Source: a phage
DNA: 49,223 nucleotides
Direction: 5' to 3' (one strand)
Sequence record: NC_103567.1
The translations under genes were made by a program, and so were the position numbers. Below are positions 1,621 to 42,718 of the stretch, in pieces. How positions within the stretch are numbered: the first letter of the stretch is position 1; each line of letters begins with the position of its first letter. Under the pieces are notes generated by a model that saw only the letters and a program-made list of their open reading frames with translations, had not been told where the DNA came from and made no database searches.

Positions 1621-1641
1621 AATAGCACTTTTTGTTAAAAC
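1621..1641 (+). promoter_or_regulatory. 21-bp early-promoter-associated motif, class I (AATAGCACTTTTTGTTAAAAC)
   Basis: Matches the dispersed motif; TGG-CATAAT extended -10-like element about 22 bp downstream; gene follows. Confidence 0.6.
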
Positions 1642-1696
1642 TCGATTGGGGTAGTTTGGCATAATTACCACATCGAAACGAAACGAGGAAAACACA

Positions 1697-1855
1697 ATGA
1701 CTACCTTAATCACCTGGGAACACGAAACAAGCCAGCCAGTAACCCGCGAGTTTGAAACTCTTAGCCAGGCTTATCTGCTTGCTGCTAACGGTGGTTATTA
1801 CAAGGCGCAAGTTGTTGATGAAATGGGAGTGATTGTTTATGAGTTCCATGCATAA
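1697..1855 (+). CDS. hypothetical small protein (about 52 aa)
   Basis: ATG preceded by GAGGA; hand translation MTTLITWEHETSQPVTREFETLSQAYLLAANGGYYKAQVVDEMGVIVYEFHA; coordinates approximate. Confidence 0.4.
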   Translation: MTTLITWEHETSQPVTREFETLSQAYLLAANGGYYKAQVVDEMGVIVYEFHA

Positions 1856-3971: not shown

Positions 3972-3991
3972 ATAGCACTTTTTGCTAAAAC
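3971..3991 (+). promoter_or_regulatory. 21-bp motif, class I
   Basis: AATAGCACTTTTTGCTAAAAC then inverted repeat GGCACA...TGTGCC enclosing TGATAAAGT. Confidence 0.6.
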
Positions 3992-4048
3992 TTGCTAAGG
4001 CACATTTGATAAAGTGTGCCTTGTCGAGACAAGCAAGGAGAATGACAA

Positions 4049-4539: not shown

Positions 4540-5107
4540 AATTATTATCCTCAACGCGCCGCCTGGTGCTGGCAAAGATACGATTGGCAAGATGATTTCT
4601 GTCTATTCGCCTGGTAAGCAATGCCGAATCATTAGCTTTAAAGAGCCAATGTTTGATATTGCATTAGCTATCCTGGGCAAAGAGAACTATCAGCGTTTCA
4701 TGCTGGCTTACGATTACAGAGAGCAGAAAGAAAGGCCGCAAACATTCCTGATGGGTATGTCACCGCGCGAGTTCATGATCTGGATTAGCGAGGATGTGAT
4801 CAAGCCTAAATTCGGTAAGGATTATTTCGGCGTAAGGTTTAATCAGAAAGTAAAAGAGTGTGATGCTCCTGTTGTTTGCACTGATGGCGGTTTTCCAGAT
4901 GAAATTATAGCGCTAATCAATGCTGGTAATGAGGTGAAGTTATGCCGCTTGCACCGCGACGGGTTCACGTTTGCAGGTGATAGCCGCAACTACATTCGAA
5001 TAAATCCATACTACCAGAAAAACGGATATAGCGAGCACGATTATAAATTGGTTGATAAACAACCAAATGTAACGGTAAAGGAAATCATTCGCGATCACCT
5101 TAAATAG
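4532..5107 (+). CDS. P-loop nucleotide kinase (deoxynucleoside monophosphate kinase-like)
   Basis: N-terminal IIILNAPPGAGKDT Walker A in the arrangement seen in phage dNMP kinases; 191 aa. Confidence 0.7.
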   Translation: MAKIIILNAPPGAGKDTIGKMISVYSPGKQCRIISFKEPMFDIALAILGKENYQRFMLAYDYREQKERPQTFLMGMSPREFMIWISEDVIKPKFGKDYFGVRFNQKVKECDAPVVCTDGGFPDEIIALINAGNEVKLCRLHRDGFTFAGDSRNYIRINPYYQKNGYSEHDYKLVDKQPNVTVKEIIRDHLK

Positions 5108-5123
5108 CACGAATTGCTAAAAC
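5103..5123 (+). promoter_or_regulatory. 21-bp motif, class II
   Basis: AATAGCACGAATTGCTAAAAC then AAGGCC...GGCCTT enclosing TGTTATAGT. Confidence 0.6.
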
Positions 5124-5187
5124 TTGCGCAAGGCCATTTGTTATAGTGGCCTTATTCAAGAGAAGCAACCAATCAGAGGAATAAACG

Positions 5188-6568: not shown

Positions 6569-6772
6569 ATGGCTGTATACACTGGCAAGATGTTTGAAAG
6601 CGAAAACCCGATTTACGGCGGCACTTATGAGCTAATCATTGATGAAGATCGCGTTATCCTGGCTGATGACGACAGCGAGGAATATTATGAAGTAGAGGCC
6701 GACAAATGGGATAACGACGTTATGTTTCTTGTTGATAACAACCGCATCAAGTTTTACGCAGTGGAGGAATAA
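6569..6772 (+). CDS. small strongly acidic protein
   Basis: 67-aa ORF with about 30 percent Asp+Glu (DEDRVILADDDSEEYYEVEADKWDND); ACGGAGA RBS. Confidence 0.6.
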   Translation: MAVYTGKMFESENPIYGGTYELIIDEDRVILADDDSEEYYEVEADKWDNDVMFLVDNNRIKFYAVEE

Positions 6773-6775
6773 CAG

Positions 6776-7027
6776 ATGATCGCAATCAACCTATCAGAAG
6801 AACAAGCGAAATCGTTGCTAAATAGCTTGGGATGGCGTTATGGCTCTGGTGAATATGAGCGATTGGATGTTAAAAGCGATGTTGCAAAAGAGGTTTTCAT
6901 CCAGCTTGAGCAGCAATTAATGCCACGCTCAACAAGTGCGGCAGAGTTAGCAGTGTGGCGGCACGAAAACGGATTGAACGAAATGGATGTTGAAAAGTGG
7001 AAGCGTAAAAACGAGGTGTTAGCATGA
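6776..7027 (+). CDS. hypothetical protein
   Basis: 83-aa ORF tightly packed after previous gene. Confidence 0.55.
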   Translation: MIAINLSEEQAKSLLNSLGWRYGSGEYERLDVKSDVAKEVFIQLEQQLMPRSTSAAELAVWRHENGLNEMDVEKWKRKNEVLA

Positions 7028-7338
7028 TTTACATTCACTCTTACGGAGTTGGCAAGTTTGGCAGCAAGCAGATCAGAAACATTCACGACACGTTAGAAGA
7101 AGCGCAAGCACAGCAACGCGTTTTAGGTGGAGTTGTTCAGGCTTTTGAATCGGTTGAGAATTTAGGCATTAACGAGCAGATAAAGGAAATCGTTGTTGAT
7201 GAAGTAGCATGTATCATTGACGATTTCAGCACGAAAGCGCCAGGTTCGGCGCGTGAGCTTGAGCCAGGTTCTATCGAGTGGGATTTATACAAGGTTGGAG
7301 TGCTAAACCGCCTCCGCGAGCTACTCGCAGAAATTTAA
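7024..7338 (+). CDS. hypothetical acidic protein
   Basis: 104-aa ORF with start overlapping previous stop. Confidence 0.6.
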   Translation: MIYIHSYGVGKFGSKQIRNIHDTLEEAQAQQRVLGGVVQAFESVENLGINEQIKEIVVDEVACIIDDFSTKAPGSARELEPGSIEWDLYKVGVLNRLRELLAEI

Positions 7339-8522: not shown

Positions 8523-8547
8523 AACCCGCCTTGCGCGGGTTTTTTTG
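8523..8547 (+). terminator. rho-independent terminator followed by a TATAAT-containing late-promoter-like sequence
   Basis: CCCGCCTTGCGCGGG hairpin plus T7 run; TATAAT about 20 bp downstream. Confidence 0.65.
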
Positions 8548-10701: not shown

Positions 10702-10715
10702 TGTGTAAAATCAAA

Positions 10716-10740
10716 GGCTGGAATATTCCGGCCTTTTTTA
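10716..10740 (+). terminator. palindromic hairpin plus T-run (AGGCTGGAATATTCCGGCCT); near-identical to the element at 14331
   Basis: GC-rich stem, AATATT loop, T6; lies between terminase and portal genes. Confidence 0.5.
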
Positions 10741-12050: not shown

Positions 12051-12718
12051 TGTTTCCCGATATGACAGAGAGCGACGTTGAAAAGGCGCTTAATGATCTG
12101 GCGGTTGATATCACTGAAAACAATGCTGATGTAGAGGCGGCAATTGCCGCCTTTATGTTGCTGGTTTACGGGTTCGCCGTTAGTGCATACAAATACCACA
12201 CTCGCCAATTTATCAGAATGGCAAAGCAAACAGGAGGTGCAAATAATCGATCCGTTATCCTTCTGATTGGTGGCGTTTACGGAAATATGAATGAACGTTG
12301 GTTCAATTCAAAATACATAACCTGGCGATCACTTATTGAGGCATCAGTAAGTAAATTTGCGTATAATGTGCTTGATGATTGGGAAGTACAACAGCGTTTA
12401 AATGAGTTACGCGAGCAAGCAGAAACAAGAGCGCAGATCCGAAAGCGCCTAAGAAAATATAAGGCGTGGGCTAAAAATAGGGCGTCTGGTTTTGTTGGTT
12501 CGTGGTATTCCGTGTTAATGTATCAACGCGTGGTTGATACCGGAGTTACCCATTATATTTGGCGCACTCAGGAAGATAACAGGGTTAGACCTGAACACGC
12601 TAAATTGGATATGAAACGGATCTCATTGGCAATAAAGCACATATTCCCAGGGCAGGAATATAATTGTCGCTGTTGGGCGCAACCGGATTGGGAAACAGAG
12701 CAAGAGGTATATTTATGA
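12047..12718 (+). CDS. head morphogenesis protein (SPP1 gp7-like minor head protein)
   Basis: 223-aa ORF overlapping the portal stop; canonical position after portal. Confidence 0.65.
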   Translation: MMFPDMTESDVEKALNDLAVDITENNADVEAAIAAFMLLVYGFAVSAYKYHTRQFIRMAKQTGGANNRSVILLIGGVYGNMNERWFNSKYITWRSLIEASVSKFAYNVLDDWEVQQRLNELREQAETRAQIRKRLRKYKAWAKNRASGFVGSWYSVLMYQRVVDTGVTHYIWRTQEDNRVRPEHAKLDMKRISLAIKHIFPGQEYNCRCWAQPDWETEQEVYL

Positions 12719-13824
12719 AGAAGGTGCAACGTTTTGATAGTGTCAGAGTAAAGGCGCATTTTGATGAACACGGCTTTTTAGTGGATCGTCCTATTGTGGC
12801 GCGAATTGGTTTGCAGATTTATCAAACGCCATACGGCGAGCGCAGAGAATTCAGGCCAGCAAGTGAAGTGTTTAAAGCTGATAGCCTGGCGACTTACGCA
12901 GGTAAACCAATCACAGTAGGTCACGTCACCGTAACGCCGGAAAATGCGCGTGATGTTGTAGTTGGTACTTGTTCAGGCGCTGGCATTCCAAATGGGATCG
13001 GAGTTGAAGCGCCTTTGAATATTTACGCAAAGGATGCAATTGAAAGCGCGAAGAAAAAACAAACGGCTGAAATCAGCGTTGGCTATACTTCAATTGATAT
13101 TGATAAGCCAGGTTGGGGGTCTAATGAAACGGGCGAATACATCTTTGAAGAAGATCTAAAAGATGGTGAGCAGCCGCCGAAAGATTGGGTTAAGTTTGAT
13201 GCGCTACAAACAAACATTAGCGTAAACCATATCGCGCTTGTTTTTAAAGGTCGTGCCGGAATTGCAAAATTGAATCTTGATAGCGAGCAGGAATTCCCGT
13301 ATGATACTGACGTTAAATTAAATAAAGAGGACGAAGTTATGACCGTTAAAATTAAACTGGATGGTGCTGTTGAATTTGACGTACCAAAAGAGGTTGCTAC
13401 CTTTATCGAAACCGTAAAGGCAGATGCTGAAAAAGCCAAAACCAAAGCCGACAGCCTGGAGGCAGAGCGTGACGCGCTACAGTCGAAAGTTGACGGCATT
13501 CCGGCGCAGATTGAAGAAGCAGTGAAAAAAGCAAAAGCTGACGCTGATGAACATGCCGCACTGGTCGCTACCGCTTCCGAAGTTGGCGTAAAATGCGACG
13601 GACTAACAGCCAAAGAAATTAAGATCGCATATGTGAAAGAGGTCATGGGTAATGACATTAGCGCAAAGGCTGATGCATATATTGATACCGCTTTTGATAT
13701 CGCGAAAGAATCTGATAAAATGGCGGCTCAACGTATTGCACTGAAAGGCGATTCAGCAAAAGAAAAAGAAGATGGCGCGGATTCTGTTTTAAATCCTTCC
13801 GCGCGTCTGAACAAAGCTAAATAA
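12715..13824 (+). CDS. scaffolding protein, possibly fused to a prohead protease domain
   Basis: C-terminal half is Ala/Lys/Glu-rich predicted coiled coil (AEKAKTKADSLEAERDALQSKV...); located between portal and capsid genes. Confidence 0.6.
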   Translation: MKKVQRFDSVRVKAHFDEHGFLVDRPIVARIGLQIYQTPYGERREFRPASEVFKADSLATYAGKPITVGHVTVTPENARDVVVGTCSGAGIPNGIGVEAPLNIYAKDAIESAKKKQTAEISVGYTSIDIDKPGWGSNETGEYIFEEDLKDGEQPPKDWVKFDALQTNISVNHIALVFKGRAGIAKLNLDSEQEFPYDTDVKLNKEDEVMTVKIKLDGAVEFDVPKEVATFIETVKADAEKAKTKADSLEAERDALQSKVDGIPAQIEEAVKKAKADADEHAALVATASEVGVKCDGLTAKEIKIAYVKEVMGNDISAKADAYIDTAFDIAKESDKMAAQRIALKGDSAKEKEDGADSVLNPSARLNKAK

Positions 13825-13836
13825 GGAGAAAATATT

Positions 13837-14325
13837 ATGGCTCAGATTTCAGCAAGTTATCATGTTGCAATGGCTCGCGCCTTGCCTGGTCAAGTTTCCG
13901 ACACTTCCGCGTATAACATCGACGGAGCTTGTGTTCTTGAGAATGCAGCAGGCAATCAGAATAAGCCTGTTTTTGTTGGTGTGGCGGTCCAGCATGGCGG
14001 CGTTGATGCCATGGGCAATAAGCTGATTAAGCCGATGGCGGCAAGCGGCAAGGCTTACGGCGTTGCTATTCGATCCAACTTCCAGACCACATCTAAAGAT
14101 GGTCGCATGGTTTATGAAGCTGGTAGCGGAATTAACGTAATGACTAAAGGGCGCGTTTGGATGTTATCTGTAGAGTCGGAAGCGCCAGCATTCAAAACAG
14201 CTATCAAACTTGATGATTCAGGACAGGTTGATTTAACGTCTGGATTAATTGAAACCACTTGGATCGCAACTGGAGACTTTACGGAATTCCAAGGTCTAAA
14301 ACTCGTTGAGGTTCAACTGGTATAA
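13837..14325 (+). CDS. head protein, paralog A of a tandem pair
   Basis: 162 aa; shares AYNIDGA, YGVAIRS, INVMTKGRVWM and a C-terminal EVQL with the next ORF. Confidence 0.6.
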   Translation: MAQISASYHVAMARALPGQVSDTSAYNIDGACVLENAAGNQNKPVFVGVAVQHGGVDAMGNKLIKPMAASGKAYGVAIRSNFQTTSKDGRMVYEAGSGINVMTKGRVWMLSVESEAPAFKTAIKLDDSGQVDLTSGLIETTWIATGDFTEFQGLKLVEVQLV

Positions 14326-14330
14326 TAATA

Positions 14331-14354
14331 AGGCCGGATTATTCCGGCCTTTTA
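14331..14354 (+). terminator. palindromic hairpin plus T-run (AGGCCGGATTATTCCGGCCT)
   Basis: Near-identical to the 10716-10740 element. Confidence 0.5.
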
Positions 14355-14368
14355 TATATGGTGGTTTT

Positions 14369-14809
14369 ATGTCTGATTACGGTTCTATAATAGGTATAGT
14401 TGAAAATGGGTGCTTGGTAGATTCAAGCCTTTATAATATAGATGGCTCGCCAGTTATGGATGTTTCAGCCGTGATAGGTAAGGCCGTATGTGTTGATCGC
14501 ATATCTTGCGGTTACAAAATAATCAGCCACAATTTTAATGAAAACTCAAAGCATTACGGAATCGTTACGCGTGATTATATGGATTTTTGCAAAGAATATT
14601 ACGACGCCGGAGATCCTGTTAACGTAATAACTCATGGTCGAATTTGGGTAATCACTCAGGACGAACATGATATTCCATCGTATAAAGATCCTGTTTTTGT
14701 TAAAGACAATGGCTCTATATCAACAAGTGGATTTCCTACTAGTTGGTTTTTTACTGGCGAATACGTAAGATATTCACACGGATATATTTTACTATCAGTT
14801 CAGTTGTAG
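14369..14809 (+). CDS. head protein, paralog B of the tandem pair
   Basis: About 146 aa; motifs LYNIDGS, YGIVTRD, VNVITHGRIWV, C-terminal SVQL match paralog A. Confidence 0.6.
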   Translation: MSDYGSIIGIVENGCLVDSSLYNIDGSPVMDVSAVIGKAVCVDRISCGYKIISHNFNENSKHYGIVTRDYMDFCKEYYDAGDPVNVITHGRIWVITQDEHDIPSYKDPVFVKDNGSISTSGFPTSWFFTGEYVRYSHGYILLSVQL

Positions 14810-14858
14810 CGTGCTAACACAAAAAACACTTGAACGTTTAACAAAAAATGCTATATTA

Positions 14859-14883
14859 AAGCCGTTATTGTGACGGCTTTTCT
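14859..14883 (+). terminator. hairpin plus short T-run upstream of the capsid gene
   Basis: AAAGCCGTTATTGTGACGGCTTTT. Confidence 0.4.
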
Positions 14884-14898
14884 ATGAGGGGAAATATT

Positions 14899-15876
14899 AT
14901 GTCTAAAGAAAAAATTAAATTTGATGAATTTGAAGCGTCTGTGATTTCTAATCACCTGCAACTGCAAGGCGCTAAAAACGATGCGTCTGATATGGGGATT
15001 TGGACGGCTCAAGAGCTACACAAAATTAAGTCTCAGGCTTATGAGAAAGAATATCCGGCAGGTTCCGCACTGCGTGTATTCCCTGTAACGTCCGAGCTTT
15101 CCGATACTGATAAAACTTTTGAATACCAGACTTTCGACAAAGTAGGTCACGCAAAAATCATCGCTGATTATACTGATGATCTGCCAACTGTTGACGCGAT
15201 GATGACTTCTGAATTTGGTAAAGTGTTCCGACTTGGTAATGCGTTCCTGATTTCCATTGACGAAATCAAAGCAGGTCAACGCACTGGCAAGAGCCTTTCC
15301 ACTCGCAAGGCAAACGCCGCACAGAATGCGCATGATCAGCTTGTCAATCACCTGGTTTTCAAAGGCTCTAAGCCGCACAAAATTATCAGTGTGTTTGAAC
15401 ATCCGAACATCACAACTATCAACTCCGCAGGTTGGAACAACGCCGCAGGTACTGGTAAAAAGCCGGAAACAGCACAGGATGAATTAGAGCAAGCGATTGA
15501 AAAAATCGAAACGCTGACCAACGGGCAGCACCGCGCTACTCACATTCTGATCCCGCCGTCAATGCGTAAGGTTTTGAGCGTTCGTATGCCGGAAACCACC
15601 ATGAGCTATCTTGATTACTTCAAGCAGCAGAATGGAGGTATCACTATCGAATCCATTTCCGAGCTTGAAGATATTGACGGCGCAGGGACTAAAGCGGCGC
15701 TGGTTTACGAAAAAGATCCGATGAACATGAGCATTGAGATTCCAGAAGCGTTTAACATGCTGACCGCGCAACCTAAAGACCTGCATTTCAAAGTGCCTTG
15801 CACCTCTAAATGTACTGGCCTGACGATTTACCGTCCGTTGACGCTGGTTCTGATTAAAGGTCTTGTAGTAGGCTGA
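14899..15876 (+). CDS. major capsid protein
   Basis: About 325-aa ORF with GAGGGG RBS, bracketed by terminator hairpins, in the canonical position. Confidence 0.8.
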   Translation: MSKEKIKFDEFEASVISNHLQLQGAKNDASDMGIWTAQELHKIKSQAYEKEYPAGSALRVFPVTSELSDTDKTFEYQTFDKVGHAKIIADYTDDLPTVDAMMTSEFGKVFRLGNAFLISIDEIKAGQRTGKSLSTRKANAAQNAHDQLVNHLVFKGSKPHKIISVFEHPNITTINSAGWNNAAGTGKKPETAQDELEQAIEKIETLTNGQHRATHILIPPSMRKVLSVRMPETTMSYLDYFKQQNGGITIESISELEDIDGAGTKAALVYEKDPMNMSIEIPEAFNMLTAQPKDLHFKVPCTSKCTGLTIYRPLTLVLIKGLVVG

Positions 15877-15892
15877 TAATTCAATTAATATA

Positions 15893-15919
15893 GGGAACCG
15901 TTAAAAGGTTCCCTTTTTT
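15893..15919 (+). terminator. rho-independent terminator
   Basis: GGGAACC...GGTTCCC hairpin plus T6. Confidence 0.7.
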
Positions 15920-15937
15920 ATATATGGAGAAAAACAA

Positions 15938-16210
15938 ATGGCTAAAGAAAAAGAAATTACACTGGTTAACACTGGCGTTGCACTGATTATTATTGATCGC
16001 GTTGACGTTATGCCAGGTAAAGAAATTACCGTTGCGGAAAGCGTGTTAGAGCGGCAAGGCACTAAAGCACTTATGGCAGAAGGTAAGCTAACAATCAAAG
16101 ATAACAGCGATCTCAATGCTGAAATCGTTGAAGCGTTTAAGAGCAAGCGCAAAAAAGATCCGAACGAAGGCAAGACAAAAAAAGAGCTTGAGGACGGCGG
16201 CGAGTATTAA
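15938..16210 (+). CDS. hypothetical head-associated protein
   Basis: 90-aa ORF between two terminators in the late block. Confidence 0.55.
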   Translation: MAKEKEITLVNTGVALIIIDRVDVMPGKEITVAESVLERQGTKALMAEGKLTIKDNSDLNAEIVEAFKSKRKKDPNEGKTKKELEDGGEY

Positions 16211-16216
16211 TTAATA

Positions 16217-16242
16217 AAGGCGCTTATTTAGCGCCTTTTTTA
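16217..16242 (+). terminator. rho-independent terminator
   Basis: AAGGCGCTTATTTAGCGCCTT plus T-run. Confidence 0.7.
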
Positions 16243-16255
16243 TTGGGGGTAAATC

Positions 16256-16660
16256 ATGAATGATATTGAGATCTTAGAGCAGATTTATAAACTTGCTCCA
16301 GCATTTAAAAAAGTAGATCCTGAATTGATTCAGGCATGGATCGAATTAGCAAAAGATTTCGTTTGCGTTAACCACTTCAAAGACAAGTACAATCGCGCTG
16401 TTGCTCTTTATACGTTGCACCTGATGACTCTTGACGGCGCAATGAAACAGGAAGGTGAAAGCGTAGAAAGCTACTCGCATCGTATAGCGTCATTTTCCCT
16501 GACTGGTGAGTTTTCTCAGACATTCAGCAAAGTTAGTGACGACACAAGCGGTAACACGTTGCGCCAAACGCCGTGGGGTAAAATGTATGAAGTTCTTAAC
16601 AAGAAAAAAGGCGGCGGATTTGGCCTTACAACTGCCTTTCGTCGGAGGTGCTCACGATGA
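16256..16660 (+). CDS. head-tail connector/adaptor protein (putative)
   Basis: 134-aa ORF in the connector region. Confidence 0.55.
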
Positions 16661-22524: not shown

Positions 22525-22528
22525 ATCA

Positions 22529-22551
22529 AAGCCGCCTTGTGCGGCTTTTTT
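22529..22551 (+). terminator. rho-independent terminator followed by a TATAAT late-promoter-like element
   Basis: AAGCCGCCTTGTGCGGCTT plus T-run, then TGTGTCTATAATGG. Confidence 0.6.
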
Positions 22552-22590: not shown

Positions 22591-23349
22591 ATGGATGAAA
22601 AACAGATCAAAAAGACTTTTGAAAATTGTCTGCAATCGCTTTTTCCTGGTGAGATTATTACTCTTGTCGAGGTTGACGGCACAAAATTTGGTGCTCAGGT
22701 TTACCGCTTTCATGCTGAAAATATCGCGTACACGCCAGAGGAATTAATGCAAGCGCGTGAAACTGGAATATTGCCGCCTAAAGACATTAAATTCCGTGGT
22801 GAGGTTTACGGGGCGCGGCCTTTTGGGATTACTGGCATAGGATTTACAAGTAACGGAAAGGCAGAGAAACCACAATTAGCGCTTTCAAATTTAGATAGCC
22901 GCGTATCTGCATTAATCAGATCATATAATGGCATGATGCAAGCCAAAGTAACAATTTGGGTTACATCGGCTGATTTAATTGATGATGAAGGTAATGTGGA
23001 GGACGGCGCATATAGAAAACTGGTTTATTATATTGAGCGTCCAAATTTTGTTAATCAGACGGTTGCACGTTTTGAATTAACATCACCTTATGATATGGAT
23101 GGAATTATGATCCCGCCACGACTTACGCAAAGCGTTTGTTATTGGGCGCAACGTGGATGGTATAGAAGCGGTAAAGGTTGCGGATATAACGGATCTGCAA
23201 TGTTCGATAAAGATAATAATCCTGTAACAGATCCGAGTAAGGATTATTGCGCCGGAACGGTAACAGCTTGCAAATTGCGTTTTGGTCCTGAAAATGAATT
23301 AGATTTCGGCGGAGCGGCTGTTGCTTCACTGTTGAGGAAAAACCAATGA
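22591..23349 (+). CDS. minor tail protein (lambda L-like)
   Basis: 252-aa ORF with Cys-containing C-terminal region, canonical position. Confidence 0.6.
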   Translation: MDEKQIKKTFENCLQSLFPGEIITLVEVDGTKFGAQVYRFHAENIAYTPEELMQARETGILPPKDIKFRGEVYGARPFGITGIGFTSNGKAEKPQLALSNLDSRVSALIRSYNGMMQAKVTIWVTSADLIDDEGNVEDGAYRKLVYYIERPNFVNQTVARFELTSPYDMDGIMIPPRLTQSVCYWAQRGWYRSGKGCGYNGSAMFDKDNNPVTDPSKDYCAGTVTACKLRFGPENELDFGGAAVASLLRKNQ

Positions 23350-24660: not shown

Positions 24661-24668
24661 TTATATTA

Positions 24669-24691
24669 ACCCGCCGTTGCGCGGGTTTTTT
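24669..24691 (+). terminator. rho-independent terminator
   Basis: ACCCGCCGTTGCGCGGGT plus T6. Confidence 0.65.
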
Positions 24692-24740: not shown

Positions 24741-27700
24741 ATGGTTAAAAATATGATAACTGGCAGTAAGGGCGGTTCATCTAAACCGCACACACCTGTT
24801 GAAATGGAAGATAACTTGATTTCAATTAACAGGATCAGAATTCTTTTAGCTGTTTCTGATGGTGAAGTTGATCCAGACTTTTCATTAAAAGATTTATATT
24901 TTGATGACGTTCCGGTTATGAATCAGGACGGGTCACTAAACTTTCAGAATGTTAAAGCCGAATTCAGACCAGGATCACAAACGCAAGATTATATTCAGGG
25001 ATTCACTGACACGGCGAGTGAGATTACTGTTGCTCGCGATCTGACGGCTGCAACTCCTTATATTATTTCCGTGACTAATAAAAACCTTTCCGCGATCCGT
25101 ATTAAAATTTTAATGCCGCGAGGGTTTACGCAGGAGGATAACGGAGATTTAACAGGCGTTCGCGTTGAATATGCTGTTGATATGGCTGTTGATGGTGCTG
25201 AATATAAAGAGGTTTTGTATGATGTAATTGAAGGTAAAACAATGAGCGGTTACGACAGAAGCCGCCGAATTGATTTACCTGCTTTCAATGAGCGTGTTTT
25301 ATTGCGCGTCCGTCGCCTGACAGATAGCACGTCAGCAAGGGTAACGGATCTGATTAAAATGCAAAGCTATGCTGAAGTTGTAGACGCTAAATTTCGTTAC
25401 CCACTGACTGGTTTAGTATATGTTGAGTTTGACAGCGAATTATTCCCTAATGCGTTGCCGAATATCAGCATTAAGAAAAAATGGAAAATCATTAATGTTC
25501 CGTCAAATTATGATCCTATTTCCCGCACTTACTCAGGGTCATGGGATGGAACCTGGAAAAAGGCATGGAGTAATAACCCTGCTTTTGTTCTGTATGATTT
25601 GATTACCAATCAGCGTTACGGACTCGATCAAAGAGAATTAGGCATCGCGCTTGATAAATGGAGCATTTACGAATGTGCGCAGTATTGCGATCAGATGGTT
25701 CCAGACGGTAAAGGCGGAACAGAGCCGCGCTATCTTTGCGACGTTGTGATCCAGAGCCAGGTAGAAGCGTATCAGCTTGTCCGTGATATTTGCTCAATCT
25801 TTCGAGGAATGAGTTTTTGGAACGGTGAAAGCCTTTCAATTGTGATCGATAAGCCGCGCGATGCGTCATACATCTTTACCAATGACAACGTGGTTAATGG
25901 TGAGTTTACTTACACGTTTGCCAGCGAGAAAAGCATGTACACGCAATGTAACGTGACTTTCGACGACGAACAAAACATGTATCAACAGGATGTTGAGGGA
26001 GTTTTCGAAACGGAGGCGGCGTTACGCTTTGGATATAACAGCACGTCAATAACTGCTATCGGTTGCACTCGACGTAGTGAGGCTAATCGCCGTGGGCGCT
26101 GGATTCTGAAAACCAACGTCAAGAGCACAACAGTAAACTTTGCTACTGGCCTGGAAGGTATGATCCCAACGGTAGGCGATGTAATTGTTGTTTCGGATAA
26201 CTTCTGGTCAAGCGCTTTGACGCTGAATCTATCAGGTCGATTGATGGAGGTTAACGGGTTGCAGGTGTTCACGCCGTTTAAGGTTGACGCAAGAGCGGGT
26301 GATCGCATTCTGGTAAATAAGCCGGATGGTAAGCCAGTTGGTCGAACCATTGCGCGTGTGAGCGATGACGGCAAAACGCTAACGCTAAACACAACGTTTG
26401 GCTTTGACGTTAAGCCGGATGCGGTTTTTGCAATTGAGCGCACAGATATAGCCCAGCAACGCTATGTAGTAACAGGAATAACTAAAGGTGATGGTGATGA
26501 AGAATTTGTATACAACATCACGGCTGTTGAATACGACGCTAACAAGTACGATGAAATTGATTATGGTGTGAACATTGATGATCGCCCTACTTCCATTGTG
26601 CAGCCTGACATTCTGCCAGCACCTGAAAACGTCAAGATCGAATCTTATTCGCGAGTTGTTCAGGGCGCGAGCGTGGAAACAATGCACGTTTCATGGGATA
26701 AAGTTGAATACGCAAGTCTGTATGAAATGCAGTGGCGAAAAGACAATGGCAACTGGAACAATACGCCGCGAACCGCGAACAAGGAAACGGAAGTTGAAGG
26801 TATTTATGCGGGTAACTATCACGTAAGGGTTAGATCTGTTGCGGCTAATGGTTCAGCGTCTGGATGGTCTGCAATAGTAAGCGCAGGATTAACCGGAAAA
26901 GTGGGAGAGCCGGAAAAGCCAATTAACCTTACAGCGTCAGATAATGAGGTTTTCGGAATTCGCGTAAAATGGGGTATGCCGGAGGGAAGCGGAGACACGG
27001 CCTATATAGAGTTGCATCAAGCGCCAAACGGTGCTGATGGTCATCCTATAGTTGACGAAGCAACGCTATTAACGCTTGTTCCGTTCCCGCAATATGAGTA
27101 TTGGCATTCAATACTGCCAGCGGGTCATGTTGTCTGGTACAAGGCAAGGGCAGTTGACAAAATCGGGAATGTGTCTGATTGGACTGACTTTGTGCGCGGC
27201 ATGGCTTCCGACGATACGAGCATTATCACGGATCATATTAAGGTCGATATTGAAAATTCTGATGGATATAAGTGGTTACAGGAAAACGCAATAAAGGCCA
27301 ATGATAAGATCCACAGCACAGCGGAATCAGTGATTGAAAACGCATTAGCGAATGATAAAGATGTGCGACGTATGCGAGTTGAAAACGGCAAGCGTAAAGC
27401 GGAGTTCTTGCAATCGCTGAAACTCATTGCAGACGAAACAGAAGCAAGGGTAACGCAGGTCACTCAAATGAGTGCGCAATTTGACGAGAAATTAACGGCT
27501 CAAAATAGCGAATTGAGAGAGGTAATTGCTAACAGCACTGAAACCATTAGCCAAAGGATTGATCAGCTTACAGCTACGTTTGAGAGCGAAATTGATGGTG
27601 TTAAGCAGGATATCAAAGCACAGATAACTGATGTTAACAAGGCAATCACCAATGAAGCGGAAGCGCGAGCGTCAGCGGATAGGGCGTTATCAACTCAAAT

Positions 27701-39300: not shown

Positions 39301-39531
39301 ATGAGCATTCGATTAGCCGATCACATGAAATGGGATTTATTTGTCGGTATGACAATTCGCTTACTTGATAAGCATGGTTATAACGATGATAAAATGGAGT
39401 TGATAAACTGCCTGGATATGACATTTGACGAAATCAAAGTTGCGCCTTTGTACATGTGGGAAAGAAAAATTGAGCACGACCTGATACAATACAAACGCAG
39501 AGAGGGCGCACGATTTTTCAATGTGAAATAG
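39301..39531 (+). CDS. hypothetical protein
   Basis: 76-aa ORF directly after dam. Confidence 0.55.
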   Translation: MSIRLADHMKWDLFVGMTIRLLDKHGYNDDKMELINCLDMTFDEIKVAPLYMWERKIEHDLIQYKRREGARFFNVK

Positions 39532-39547
39532 CACTTTTTGTTAAAAC
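39527..39547 (+). promoter_or_regulatory. 21-bp motif, class I
   Basis: AATAGCACTTTTTGTTAAAAC then CCCGC...GCGGG and TATTAT. Confidence 0.6.
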
Positions 39548-39602
39548 CCGCTACGGCGGGTTTTGTATTATGTGCTTAACGGAAAACAAGAGGATTTCAA
39601 AA

Positions 39603-42637: not shown

Positions 42638-42697
42638 TTTGTTTTCCTTTTGTTGCTACGTTTCGTTAAAACAAATATACCCGATACAAGATCGGGT

Positions 42698-42718
42698 GTT
42701 TTAACAAAAAGTGCTATT
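42698..42718 (-). promoter_or_regulatory. 21-bp motif, class I (reverse complement)
   Basis: GTTTTAACAAAAAGTGCTATT on the plus strand; an inverted repeat lies downstream in the direction of transcription. Confidence 0.6.

What the first reader, a model, noticed from the sequence alone, without database searches (positions are those of the whole stretch)
13837..14809. Tandem paralogous head-region genes separated by a palindromic terminator-like element that also occurs between terminase and portal
ORFs 13837-14325 and 14369-14809 share several motifs (AYNIDGA/LYNIDGS, YGVAIRS/YGIVTRD, INVMTKGRVWM/VNVITHGRIWV, C-terminal EVQL/SVQL), indicating an ancient tandem duplication between the scaffold and capsid genes. 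The element between them, AGGCCGGATTATTCCGGCCT plus T-run at 14331, is nearly identical to AGGCTGGAATATTCCGGCCT plus T-run at 10716. The duplication and the repeated palindrome suggest modular rearrangement and possibly stoichiometry control of decoration or accessory head proteins by attenuation.
Basis: seen in the sequence. Interest (0 to 1): 0.4.

Follow-up and report, generated by a model that had tools for sequence, protein, structure and literature searches.

The report
Paired capsid cement genes, T1-like phage
Two neighbouring genes of a T1-like phage encode related "cement" proteins that clamp the capsid shell, separated by a conserved transcription terminator that probably keeps the second, minor one scarce; nearly all of this is already known from phage T1, so it is ordinary.

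Summary
ORFs 13837-14325 (162 aa, "A") and 14369-14809 (146 aa, "B") are paralogs (32% identity, E 6e-19). Both belong to Pfam Phage_cement/XM1_gp53. The window is a T1-like siphophage (Tlsvirus, 99.9% identical to Salmonella phage phSE-2).

The T1 homologs gp49 and gp48 have solved structures. They are beta-tulip cement proteins forming 80 gp49 homotrimers and 60 gp49(2)gp48 heterotrimers, a 360:60 ratio. B lacks gp48's Big_2 domain.

The hairpin between A and B looks like an intrinsic terminator. It sits at this position in all 36 distinct spacers from two-paralog relatives, with 13 different stems. T1 and Sazh records already annotate it.

Single-cement relatives read cement, terminator, promoter, capsid gene. 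In two-paralog phages B lies between that terminator and a near-universal extended -10 promoter. This fits stoichiometry set by attenuation but does not prove it.

The 18/20 resemblance to the terL-portal terminator is not special. Other non-homologous terminator pairs reach 17-20/20, and the A|B stems of relatives differ. A, the terminator and B are exchanged as one cassette, but the breakpoints are not at the palindrome.

Verdict: mostly already known, low interest.

The parts
13823..13828 (+). Shine-Dalgarno AAGGAG of gene A
   Evidence: Read. TAAGGAG is conserved in relatives. Mean SD/anti-SD energy is -9.0 kcal/mol for A against -7.5 for B, and A is stronger in 24 of 32 distinct loci.
13837..14325 (+). 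Gene A: major capsid cement (decoration) protein, ortholog of T1 gp49
   Evidence: Pfam Phage_cement 88.8 bits and XM1_gp53 63.5 bits. phrog_1989. PDB 9kmg_a/9kzj 'cement protein II', E = 4e-43 over residues 1-161. The TLS homolog Gp34 is annotated as capsid decoration protein (PMC11447400).
14330..14359 (+). Intrinsic-terminator-like hairpin (stem 14330-14338/14343-14351, loop TTAT) plus U-tract TTTTATATAT; inferred attenuator between A and B
   Evidence: -18.6 kcal/mol, z = -3.96. A hairpin is present at this position in 36 of 36 distinct spacers of relatives, with 13 stem sequences; shuffles give 0.045. The T1 and Sazh records annotate a terminator here.
14360..14364 (+). Weak Shine-Dalgarno GGTGG of gene B
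   Evidence: Read; duplex energy -7.2 kcal/mol.
14369..14809 (+). Gene B: minor cement paralog, ortholog of the N-terminal domain of T1 gp48, without the Big_2 domain
   Evidence: Pfam XM1_gp53 90.2 bits and Phage_cement 52.6 bits, with no Ig domain. PDB T1 gp48 9kzj_H E = 3.6e-13 and FCWL1 gp29 9kmh_ak E = 3e-12. The AF2 model matches T1/FCWL1 cement chains at TM 0.71-0.77. The N-terminus is 4 residues shorter than A in all lineages.
14830..14857 (+). Sigma70-like extended -10 promoter of the capsid gene (TTGAAC, 16 nt, TGcTATATT)
   Evidence: The same architecture is present in 55 of 60 distinct spacers upstream of the capsid gene across relatives, and 3 more carry a 1-nt variant.
14836..14854 (-). 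Inverted copy of the T1-like 'DR' repeat ATAGCACnnnTTGnTAAAA, overlapping the promoter spacer and -10
   Evidence: 22 matches in the window against 3.2 expected, and this is the only copy in the late structural region. The repeat is described in TLS (PMC11447400).
14859..14883 (+). Second hairpin (stem 14859-14867/14871-14879) plus TTTTCT, starting 2 nt after the -10; inferred terminator for transcripts arriving from B
   Evidence: -12 kcal/mol, z = -2.58. The stems covary among lineages. The predicted start site near 14864 lies inside the left arm (inference).
14899..15876 (+). Major capsid protein gene (context)
   Evidence: Pfam Major_capside 189 bits and phrog_264. PDB 9kmg_A/9kzj_A, E about 1e-159.
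15892..15914 (+). Terminator-like hairpin after the capsid gene (context)
   Evidence: Annotated at the homologous site in T1 and Sazh.
10713..10736 (+). Terminator-like hairpin between terminase large subunit and portal genes; the 'second copy' of the finding
   Evidence: z = -3.92. Annotated in T1 and Sazh. The GGCTGGA/TCCAGCC stem is conserved across lineages.

Best explanation
The two ORFs are the T1 gp49/gp48 pair of beta-tulip capsid cement proteins in a Tlsvirus phage.

A (gp49-like) is the abundant subunit. It forms trimers at the threefold and quasi-threefold sites of the T=7 shell.

B (gp48-like) is the minor paralog. By homology it replaces one subunit in the five trimers around each vertex. 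Here it has no Ig-like display domain.

The palindrome between them is an intrinsic terminator acting as a leaky attenuator. B has no promoter of its own and a weaker ribosome-binding site, so it is made only from read-through transcripts.

A conserved promoter just upstream of the capsid gene then restores high expression.

Shown: paralogy, family membership, homology to solved virion proteins, and conservation with covariation of the hairpin and the promoter.

Inferred: actual termination, the read-through level, B's position in this phage's capsid, and the link to stoichiometry.
For: - Paralogy: E = 6e-19.
- Both ORFs score above the Pfam cut-offs for Phage_cement and XM1_gp53.
- A matches T1 gp49 at E = 4e-43. 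B matches T1 gp48 and FCWL1 gp29 at about 1e-12 to 1e-13.
- The AF2 model of B matches those chains at TM 0.71-0.77.
- T1 cryo-EM shows 80 gp49 homotrimers plus 60 gp49(2)gp48 heterotrimers, i.e. 360:60 (PMC11945409).
- PDB 9kzj has 7 capsid chains per 1 gp48 chain, and the FCWL1 portal-vertex entry has 5 gp29 chains.
- The hairpin is present in 36 of 36 distinct A|B spacers with 13 stems; shuffles give 0.045.
- The T1 and Sazh records annotate it as a terminator.
- No promoter-like site was found inside A or in the 43-nt spacer.
- Single-cement relatives read cement, terminator, promoter, capsid gene. B therefore occupies the gap between two ancestral signals.
- The promoter is conserved in 55-58 of 60 spacers.
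- A's SD is stronger than B's in 24 of 32 loci.
Against: - No transcript 3'-end, read-through or protein-abundance data exist for any Drexlerviridae phage in the searched library.
- The late operon contains many such hairpins. If late transcription is made terminator-resistant, this one would not attenuate.
- The hairpin's U-tract here is short (4 U). In T1 it is 7 U, so strength varies among lineages that presumably share the same stoichiometry.
- B here lacks the Ig domain and is only 28-31% identical to gp48. Its incorporation into this capsid is inferred, not observed.
- TLS SDS-PAGE assigned a band only to the A homolog.
- The model of B is of moderate confidence (pLDDT 68.7).
Confidence: 0.7

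Rival explanations
1. The hairpin is mainly an RNA stability or processing element. It would act as a 3' barrier that protects the upstream A message from exonucleases after cleavage, rather than as a site where RNA polymerase stops. The net effect, A above B, is the same, but it arises from differential decay of segments of one long transcript.
For: The late region carries many hairpins within what may be one long operon, with few promoter-like sites (the TLS paper found only three sigma70-like promoters). The stems covary, which any RNA-level function would explain.
Against: Every lineage keeps a T-run directly after the stem. A pure stability hairpin does not need one. The T1, Sazh and Stevie annotators called these elements rho-independent terminators.
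Confidence: 0.18
2. The palindrome is a repeated, possibly mobile or recombinogenic module that marks junctions where head-gene cassettes were rearranged.
For: The two copies are 18/20 identical and share a 13-nt exact right half, ATTCCGGCCTTTT. The A-terminator-B block is swapped between otherwise 97-100% identical phages L020 and L025.
Against: - Only two sites match in 49 kb at up to 3 mismatches.
- Other non-homologous terminator pairs are as similar or more so. Examples are 8523 against 22528 at 18/20, and window 8523 against T1 24970 at 20/20.
- The A|B stem differs in 12 other lineages, whereas the terL-portal stem GGCTGG is conserved.
- Breakpoints lie near 13900 inside A and near 14800 at the promoter. 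The palindrome is inside the exchanged cassette, not at its edge.
Confidence: 0.04
3. In Tlsvirus, B is no longer a virion cement subunit. After losing the Ig-like domain it might be a non-structural assembly factor or a decaying gene, with the terminator simply ending the protease-A transcription unit.
For: B is 146 aa with no Big_2 domain. It evolves much faster than A, with mean pairwise distance 0.64 against 0.38. pN/pS within Tlsvirus is a relaxed 0.36 or so, from 18 changes. No TLS gel band was assigned to it.
Against: - The ORF is intact in all 18 Tlsvirus loci and is 97-100% identical.
- The cement-domain invariant residues shared with A are kept.
- Ig-less B variants of 143-168 aa occur in several independent lineages.
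- The predicted fold matches T1 gp48.
Confidence: 0.1

Closest known systems
Phage T1 gp49/gp48 (and FCWL1) capsid cement proteins; PDB 9kzj, 9kmg, 9kmh; PMC11945409
   Same: The gene order is the same: protease, A, terminator, B, capsid gene. A is 52-55% identical to gp49, including the N-terminal arm (MAQI.ASY...ALPG). B aligns to the gp48 cement domain and shares its 4-residue shorter N-terminus. The T1 record annotates a terminator at the same spot.
   Different: B here is 146 aa and lacks the C-terminal Big_2 domain that T1 gp48 (255 aa) projects from the capsid. The terminator stem sequence is unrelated to that of T1.
Pfam PF22758 Phage_cement (E217 gp24 / Pam3 gp6) and PF23982 XM1 gp53 minor capsid protein
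   Same: Both ORFs score well above the gathering thresholds. The model of B also finds XM1 (7kmx) and Pam3 (8hdt) cement chains.
   Different: The solved examples searched here appear with one cement-type chain each. I did not check whether those phages have a second paralog.
Lambda gpD, TW1 gp56 and Sf11 gp40 beta-tulip trimeric decoration proteins
   Same: All are trimeric cement at threefold sites of T=7 HK97-fold capsids, as stated for T1 and Sf11 in PMC11945409 and PMC12724387.
   Different: They form homotrimers from a single gene. There is no detectable sequence similarity, and no vertex-specific paralog.
T1 'transcriptons': late-region modules bounded by rho-independent terminators (Roberts et al. 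2004, as cited in PMC11447400)
   Same: The late region is punctuated by intergenic terminators at the same places as in T1.
   Different: The TLS authors could not confirm promoters for most modules. The link between the A|B terminator and the 6:1 cement ratio was not found in the papers read.

Membership tests
Pfam Phage_cement (PF22758) / XM1_gp53 (PF23982) | Whole-protein HMM score above the curated gathering threshold (27 bits) | tested here: met
   A scores 88.8 and 63.5 bits. B scores 52.6 and 90.2 bits.
Pfam Phage_cement (PF22758) / XM1_gp53 (PF23982) | Beta-tulip cement fold | tested here: met
   The AF2 model of B has pLDDT 68.7, with the core at 70-89. It matches T1 and FCWL1 cement chains at TM 0.71-0.77 and probability 1.00. 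A is 55% identical to the solved gp49.
Pfam Phage_cement (PF22758) / XM1_gp53 (PF23982) | Binds as trimers at threefold sites of the mature capsid | not testable with these tools
   Shown only for the T1 and FCWL1 homologs.
T1-type two-component cement system (gp49 + gp48) | Two adjacent paralogs, major then minor, between the protease/scaffold and capsid genes | tested here: met
   The same order holds in 77 related loci.
T1-type two-component cement system (gp49 + gp48) | Minor subunit carries a C-terminal Big_2 (Ig-like) domain | tested here: not met
   B is 146 aa with only the cement domain. T1 gp48 has Big_2 at residues 176-240, and L075 has two Big_2 stretches.
T1-type two-component cement system (gp49 + gp48) | Heterotrimers of 2 major + 1 minor subunit at 60 sites, giving a 6:1 ratio | not testable with these tools
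   Known for T1 only. The vertex-proximal location is my inference from 60 sites, from 2 heterotrimers per hexon in the Fig. 2 legend, and from 5 gp29 chains in the portal-vertex entry 9kmh.
Intrinsic (rho-independent) terminator | G+C-rich stem-loop followed directly by a U-tract, on the transcribed strand, downstream of a stop codon | tested here: met
   The stem has 9 bp with 6 GC pairs, the loop is 4 nt, and TTTTATATAT follows, 5 nt after the TAA. The U-tract is only 4 uninterrupted U.
Intrinsic (rho-independent) terminator | Structure maintained by compensatory change at a fixed genomic position | tested here: met
   36 of 36 distinct spacers carry it, with 13 inner-stem sequences and 3-5 Watson-Crick pair types at each of the 7 inner positions. 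Each hairpin was registered on its own sequence, so pairing is by construction. The control is the shuffle rate of 0.045 per 36 spacers.
Intrinsic (rho-independent) terminator | Releases transcripts in vitro or in vivo | not testable with these tools
   No transcript mapping for this phage family was found.
Dispersed palindromic repeat / mobile element | Many copies of one sequence family at unrelated sites, beyond what terminators show in general | tested here: not met
   There are two sites in 49 kb. The similarity is no greater than between other terminator pairs.

The most novel reading that the evidence does not exclude
The minor, vertex-specific cement paralog was inserted into a pre-existing gap between a terminator and a promoter, and its copy number is set by where it sits. 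Single-cement relatives already have cement, terminator, promoter, capsid gene, so B inherited a transcriptional trough. About 83% termination would by itself give the 6:1 ratio seen in T1.

The trough is closed by a second hairpin whose left arm lies upstream of the capsid promoter's start site. That hairpin would stop incoming transcripts but be absent from locally initiated ones.

The capsid promoter is built on an inverted copy of the unexplained T1-family DR repeat. This could tie capsid-gene timing to whatever factor binds that repeat.
Probability: 0.35. Interest if true: 0.4.

Novelty: already known. Interest (0 to 1): 0.2.

Why it matters
It matters little beyond annotation.

- The two "hypothetical proteins" of phSE-2-like phages can be named major and minor capsid cement proteins.
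- The TLS label "IgG-domain-containing decoration protein" for the 146-aa protein should be corrected.
- If the attenuation idea holds, this would be a compact, testable case of virion stoichiometry encoded by gene position between a terminator and a promoter.
- The Ig-less B variants would show that the vertex-specific subunit has a structural role independent of surface display.

Tried and rejected
- **Palindrome as a repeated module:** rejected. Only two sites match, other terminator pairs are equally similar, and the stems of relatives differ.
- **Palindrome as recombination breakpoint:** rejected by sliding identity against L001, L020 and L025.
- **Known RNA family:** none in Rfam at gathering score. 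The two sub-threshold hits are terminator-driven.
- **Shigella phage Sf11 as a close structural relative:** it has a single homotrimeric decoration protein and is not a two-paralog system.
- **L079 as a lineage without the hairpin:** it is a frameshifted assembly, and the hairpin is present.
- **Literature searches with no result:** PDB code 9KMG, 'cement protein II', the FCWL1 paper, a Tlsvirus virion proteome and a Drexlerviridae transcriptome all found nothing usable.
- **terL-portal hairpin extraction:** my script failed for about half the loci because the portal start was mis-set. Only the 15 recovered stems and T1 are used.
- **Alternative TTG start for B at 14306:** rejected. It would overlap A and the hairpin, and all homologs start at the M-S/T-D-Y position.

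Full report
**What the window is.** A megablast of 12700-16300 finds Salmonella phage phSE-2/phSE-5 at 99.9% identity and phage TLS at 92%. The window is therefore a T1-like siphophage (Drexlerviridae, Tempevirinae, Tlsvirus). The local gene order is as follows:
- terminase small and large subunits
- portal
- Mu-F-like head morphogenesis protein
- DUF2213 protease/scaffold
- ORF A
- ORF B
- major capsid protein
- DUF7444

**The observation.**
- A (13837-14325, 162 aa) and B (14369-14809, 146 aa) align at 32% identity, E = 6e-19.
- The hairpin AGGCCGGATTATTCCGGCCT is at 14331-14350.
- AGGCTGGAATATTCCGGCCT is at 10715-10734, and the two share 18 of 20 bases.
- Both fold far better than shuffles, with z about -3.9.

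**What the proteins are.**
- Both pass the curated thresholds of Pfam Phage_cement (E217 gp24/Pam3 gp6) and XM1_gp53 minor capsid protein. Both fall in phrog_1989.
- Against the PDB, A matches the 158-aa 'cement protein II' of phages T1 and FCWL1 (9kzj, 9kmg) at E = 4e-43 over its whole length.
- B matches the N-terminal domain of the 255-aa T1 gp48 / FCWL1 gp29 at E about 1e-12 to 1e-13.
- An AlphaFold2 model of B has pLDDT 68.7. The N-terminal 26 residues are disordered and the core is at 70-89. Its best structural matches are these same chains, at TM 0.71-0.77.

**What is known from T1.** The T1 cryo-EM paper (PMC11945409) reports the following:
- gp49 and the gp48 N-domain are beta-tulip cement proteins.
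- The T=7 head carries 80 gp49 homotrimers and 60 heterotrimers of two gp49 plus one gp48, i.e. 360 gp49 to 60 gp48.
- The gp49 N-terminal arm inserts into the inner surface of the shell, whereas gp48 sits only on the outside and projects a flexible C-terminal domain.

The chain counts agree: 7 capsid chains to 1 gp48 chain in 9kzj, and 5 gp29 chains in the FCWL1 portal-vertex entry.

I infer that the minor subunit occupies one position in each of the five trimers around every vertex. The reasons are the 60 sites, the two heterotrimers per hexon in the paper's figure legend, and the five copies at the portal vertex.

**How B differs here.**
- B has only the cement domain.
- T1 gp48 has Big_2 at residues 176-240, and one relative (L075, 338 aa) has two Big_2 stretches.
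- Among relatives, B is 143-147, 153-168, 250-270 or 338 aa long. The display domain is therefore optional.
- All B proteins have an N-terminus four residues shorter than A.
- A forms one clade, and the single cement proteins of one-gene relatives group with it. B sequences are much more divergent, with mean distance 0.64 against 0.38.
- Within Tlsvirus, B is intact and 97-100% identical, with pN/pS about 0.36 from only 18 changes.

The duplication predates the split of the two-paralog lineages. B is the faster-evolving copy.

**The hairpin between A and B.** I extracted the A|B spacer from 77 two-paralog loci.
- Of 36 distinct spacers, 35 contain a hairpin of at least 7 pairs followed by a T-run. 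Composition-matched shuffles give 0.045 per 36.
- The one exception, L079, is a frameshifted assembly that also has the hairpin.
- There are 13 different inner-stem sequences. Each of the seven inner pair positions shows 3-5 Watson-Crick pair types.
- The T1 GenBank record annotates a rho-independent terminator at this spot, and so does Citrobacter phage Sazh.
- No promoter-like site lies within A or in the 43-nt spacer. B therefore depends on read-through.
- A's ribosome-binding site (TAAGGAG) is stronger than B's in 24 of 32 distinct loci.

**The wider architecture.**
- Relatives with one cement gene (L081-L104) read cement gene, terminator hairpin, promoter-like element, capsid gene.
- In two-paralog phages B lies between those two signals.
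- The promoter-like element (window 14830-14857: TTGAAC, 16 nt, TGcTATATT) occurs in 55 of 60 distinct spacers upstream of the capsid gene. Three more carry a one-base variant.
- A further hairpin follows it directly (14859-14879). Its stems covary among lineages.
- The predicted start site near 14864 falls inside the left arm of that hairpin. I infer that it can form only in transcripts arriving from B. It would act as B's terminator without affecting capsid-gene transcripts.
- B thus sits in a transcriptional trough. If translation were equal, about 83% termination would reproduce the 6:1 ratio. This is arithmetic on the T1 numbers, not a measurement.

**The second palindrome.** The terL-portal hairpin is also positionally conserved and annotated in T1 and Sazh.
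- Its stem GGCTGG(A)/(T)CCAGCC is conserved in sequence across lineages. Tlsvirus, L015 and T1 carry a G-U wobble at the same position.
- The A|B stem resembles it only in Tlsvirus and L015.
- Among the 24 strong hairpins of the window, other non-homologous pairs are as similar. Hairpin 8523 against 22528 gives 18/20, and 8523 against 24668 gives 17/20.
- Window hairpin 8523 matches T1 hairpins at other positions at 20/20.

The resemblance is therefore what terminators in these genomes commonly show. It is not evidence of a shared module.

**Modularity.**
- Compared with the window, L020 is 97-100% identical up to about 13900. It then falls to 50-74% or becomes unalignable until about 14800, and is 99-100% identical afterwards. 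L025 behaves the same way.
- The unit exchanged is most of A, the terminator and B. Its edges lie in the conserved 5' part of A and at the conserved promoter.
- TLS differs from the window mainly in a patch at 13900-14100 inside A.

Cassette exchange is real, but the palindrome is cargo, not a junction.

**Comparison with what is known.**
- The genes are members of a known family and orthologs of a structurally solved pair.
- The TLS paper already calls the A homolog a capsid decoration protein, and the TLS record labels both genes as decoration proteins.
- The terminators are annotated in several relatives.
- The TLS paper summarises T1's late region as 'transcriptons' bounded by terminators.
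- I did not find an explicit link between the A|B terminator and the 6:1 ratio, or a description of the Ig-less B. No transcript map of this phage family was found.

**Verdict.** Novelty is 'already known', with a small untested mechanistic inference. Interest is 0.2.

Noticed in passing
window 14836-14854 (- strand); also 1622, 2457, 3972, 5104, 6491, 30034, 35746, 38204, 39528 (+) and 35125, 42699, 44863, 45543, 47908, 48727, 49086 (-): The T1-family 'DR' repeat ATAGCACnnnTTGnTAAAA (function unknown; PMC11447400) has 22 matches against 3.2 expected. All early-region copies point with transcription. The only copy in the late structural region is inverted, and its ATAGCA read backwards supplies the TGcTAT extended -10 of the capsid-gene promoter. 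This orientation is conserved as far as T1.
   Followed up: partly
window 1622-1700, 3972-4040, 5104-5170, 39528-39580, 42640-42717 and the other DR sites: Each forward DR is followed about 19 nt later by a good -10 hexamer (TATAAT, TATAGT, CATAAT) with no clear -35. An inverted repeat lies between the DR and the -10, or flanks the -10. This looks like activator-dependent promoters interleaved with the previous unit's terminator.
   Followed up: partly
window 14859-14883: A hairpin starts 2 nt after the capsid promoter's -10, and its stems covary across lineages. The predicted start site lies inside its left arm. It would therefore stop incoming transcripts but be absent from transcripts that start at this promoter.
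   Followed up: partly
window 8523-8541, 22528-22548, 24668-24687; L026 (T1) 22788-22812, 24970-24988: A second set of near-identical terminator hairpins (AACCCGCC.../AAAGCCGCC...) sits at unrelated positions, at 17-20/20 identity, including across genomes. I did not resolve whether this reflects copying or a narrow optimal sequence space.
   Followed up: partly
window 13900-14100 (A residues ~22-88): There is a hypervariable patch inside A. It is 76% identical to TLS where the flanks are 96-100%, and the loop ENAAGNQNKPVF carries indels. This is possibly an exposed loop under diversifying selection.
   Followed up: no
L001 (TLS, AY308796) 6661-7101; P0001: The 146-aa TLS protein is labelled 'IgG-domain-containing decoration protein' although it has no Ig domain. 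The name HtjA is given to the A-type gene in TLS but to the B-type protein in Salmonella phage FSL SP-126.
   Followed up: yes
L006 and L019, between terL and portal: An extra ORF of about 190 aa, probably an HNH homing endonuclease (judged from motifs in the sequence, not scanned), is inserted just upstream of the conserved terL-portal terminator in some relatives.
   Followed up: no
phage records MG065663 (Campylobacter phage A134) and OR786094 (Streptococcus phage MBBL140): About 20 'Campylobacter phage' records and one 'Streptococcus phage' record match this enterobacterial T1-like head region. The Streptococcus record is 93% identical in DNA. These are probably mislabelled hosts or contaminants.
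   Followed up: no
window 14323-14331: Gene A ends in three consecutive in-frame TAA codons. The third overlaps the first bases of the terminator stem.
   Followed up: no
L075 5040-6056; L020 5532-6332; L014 5532-6035: The minor cement paralog carries zero, one or two Big_2 domains, or a short 20-aa tail, in different lineages. The capsid-display module is freely gained and lost.
   Followed up: partly
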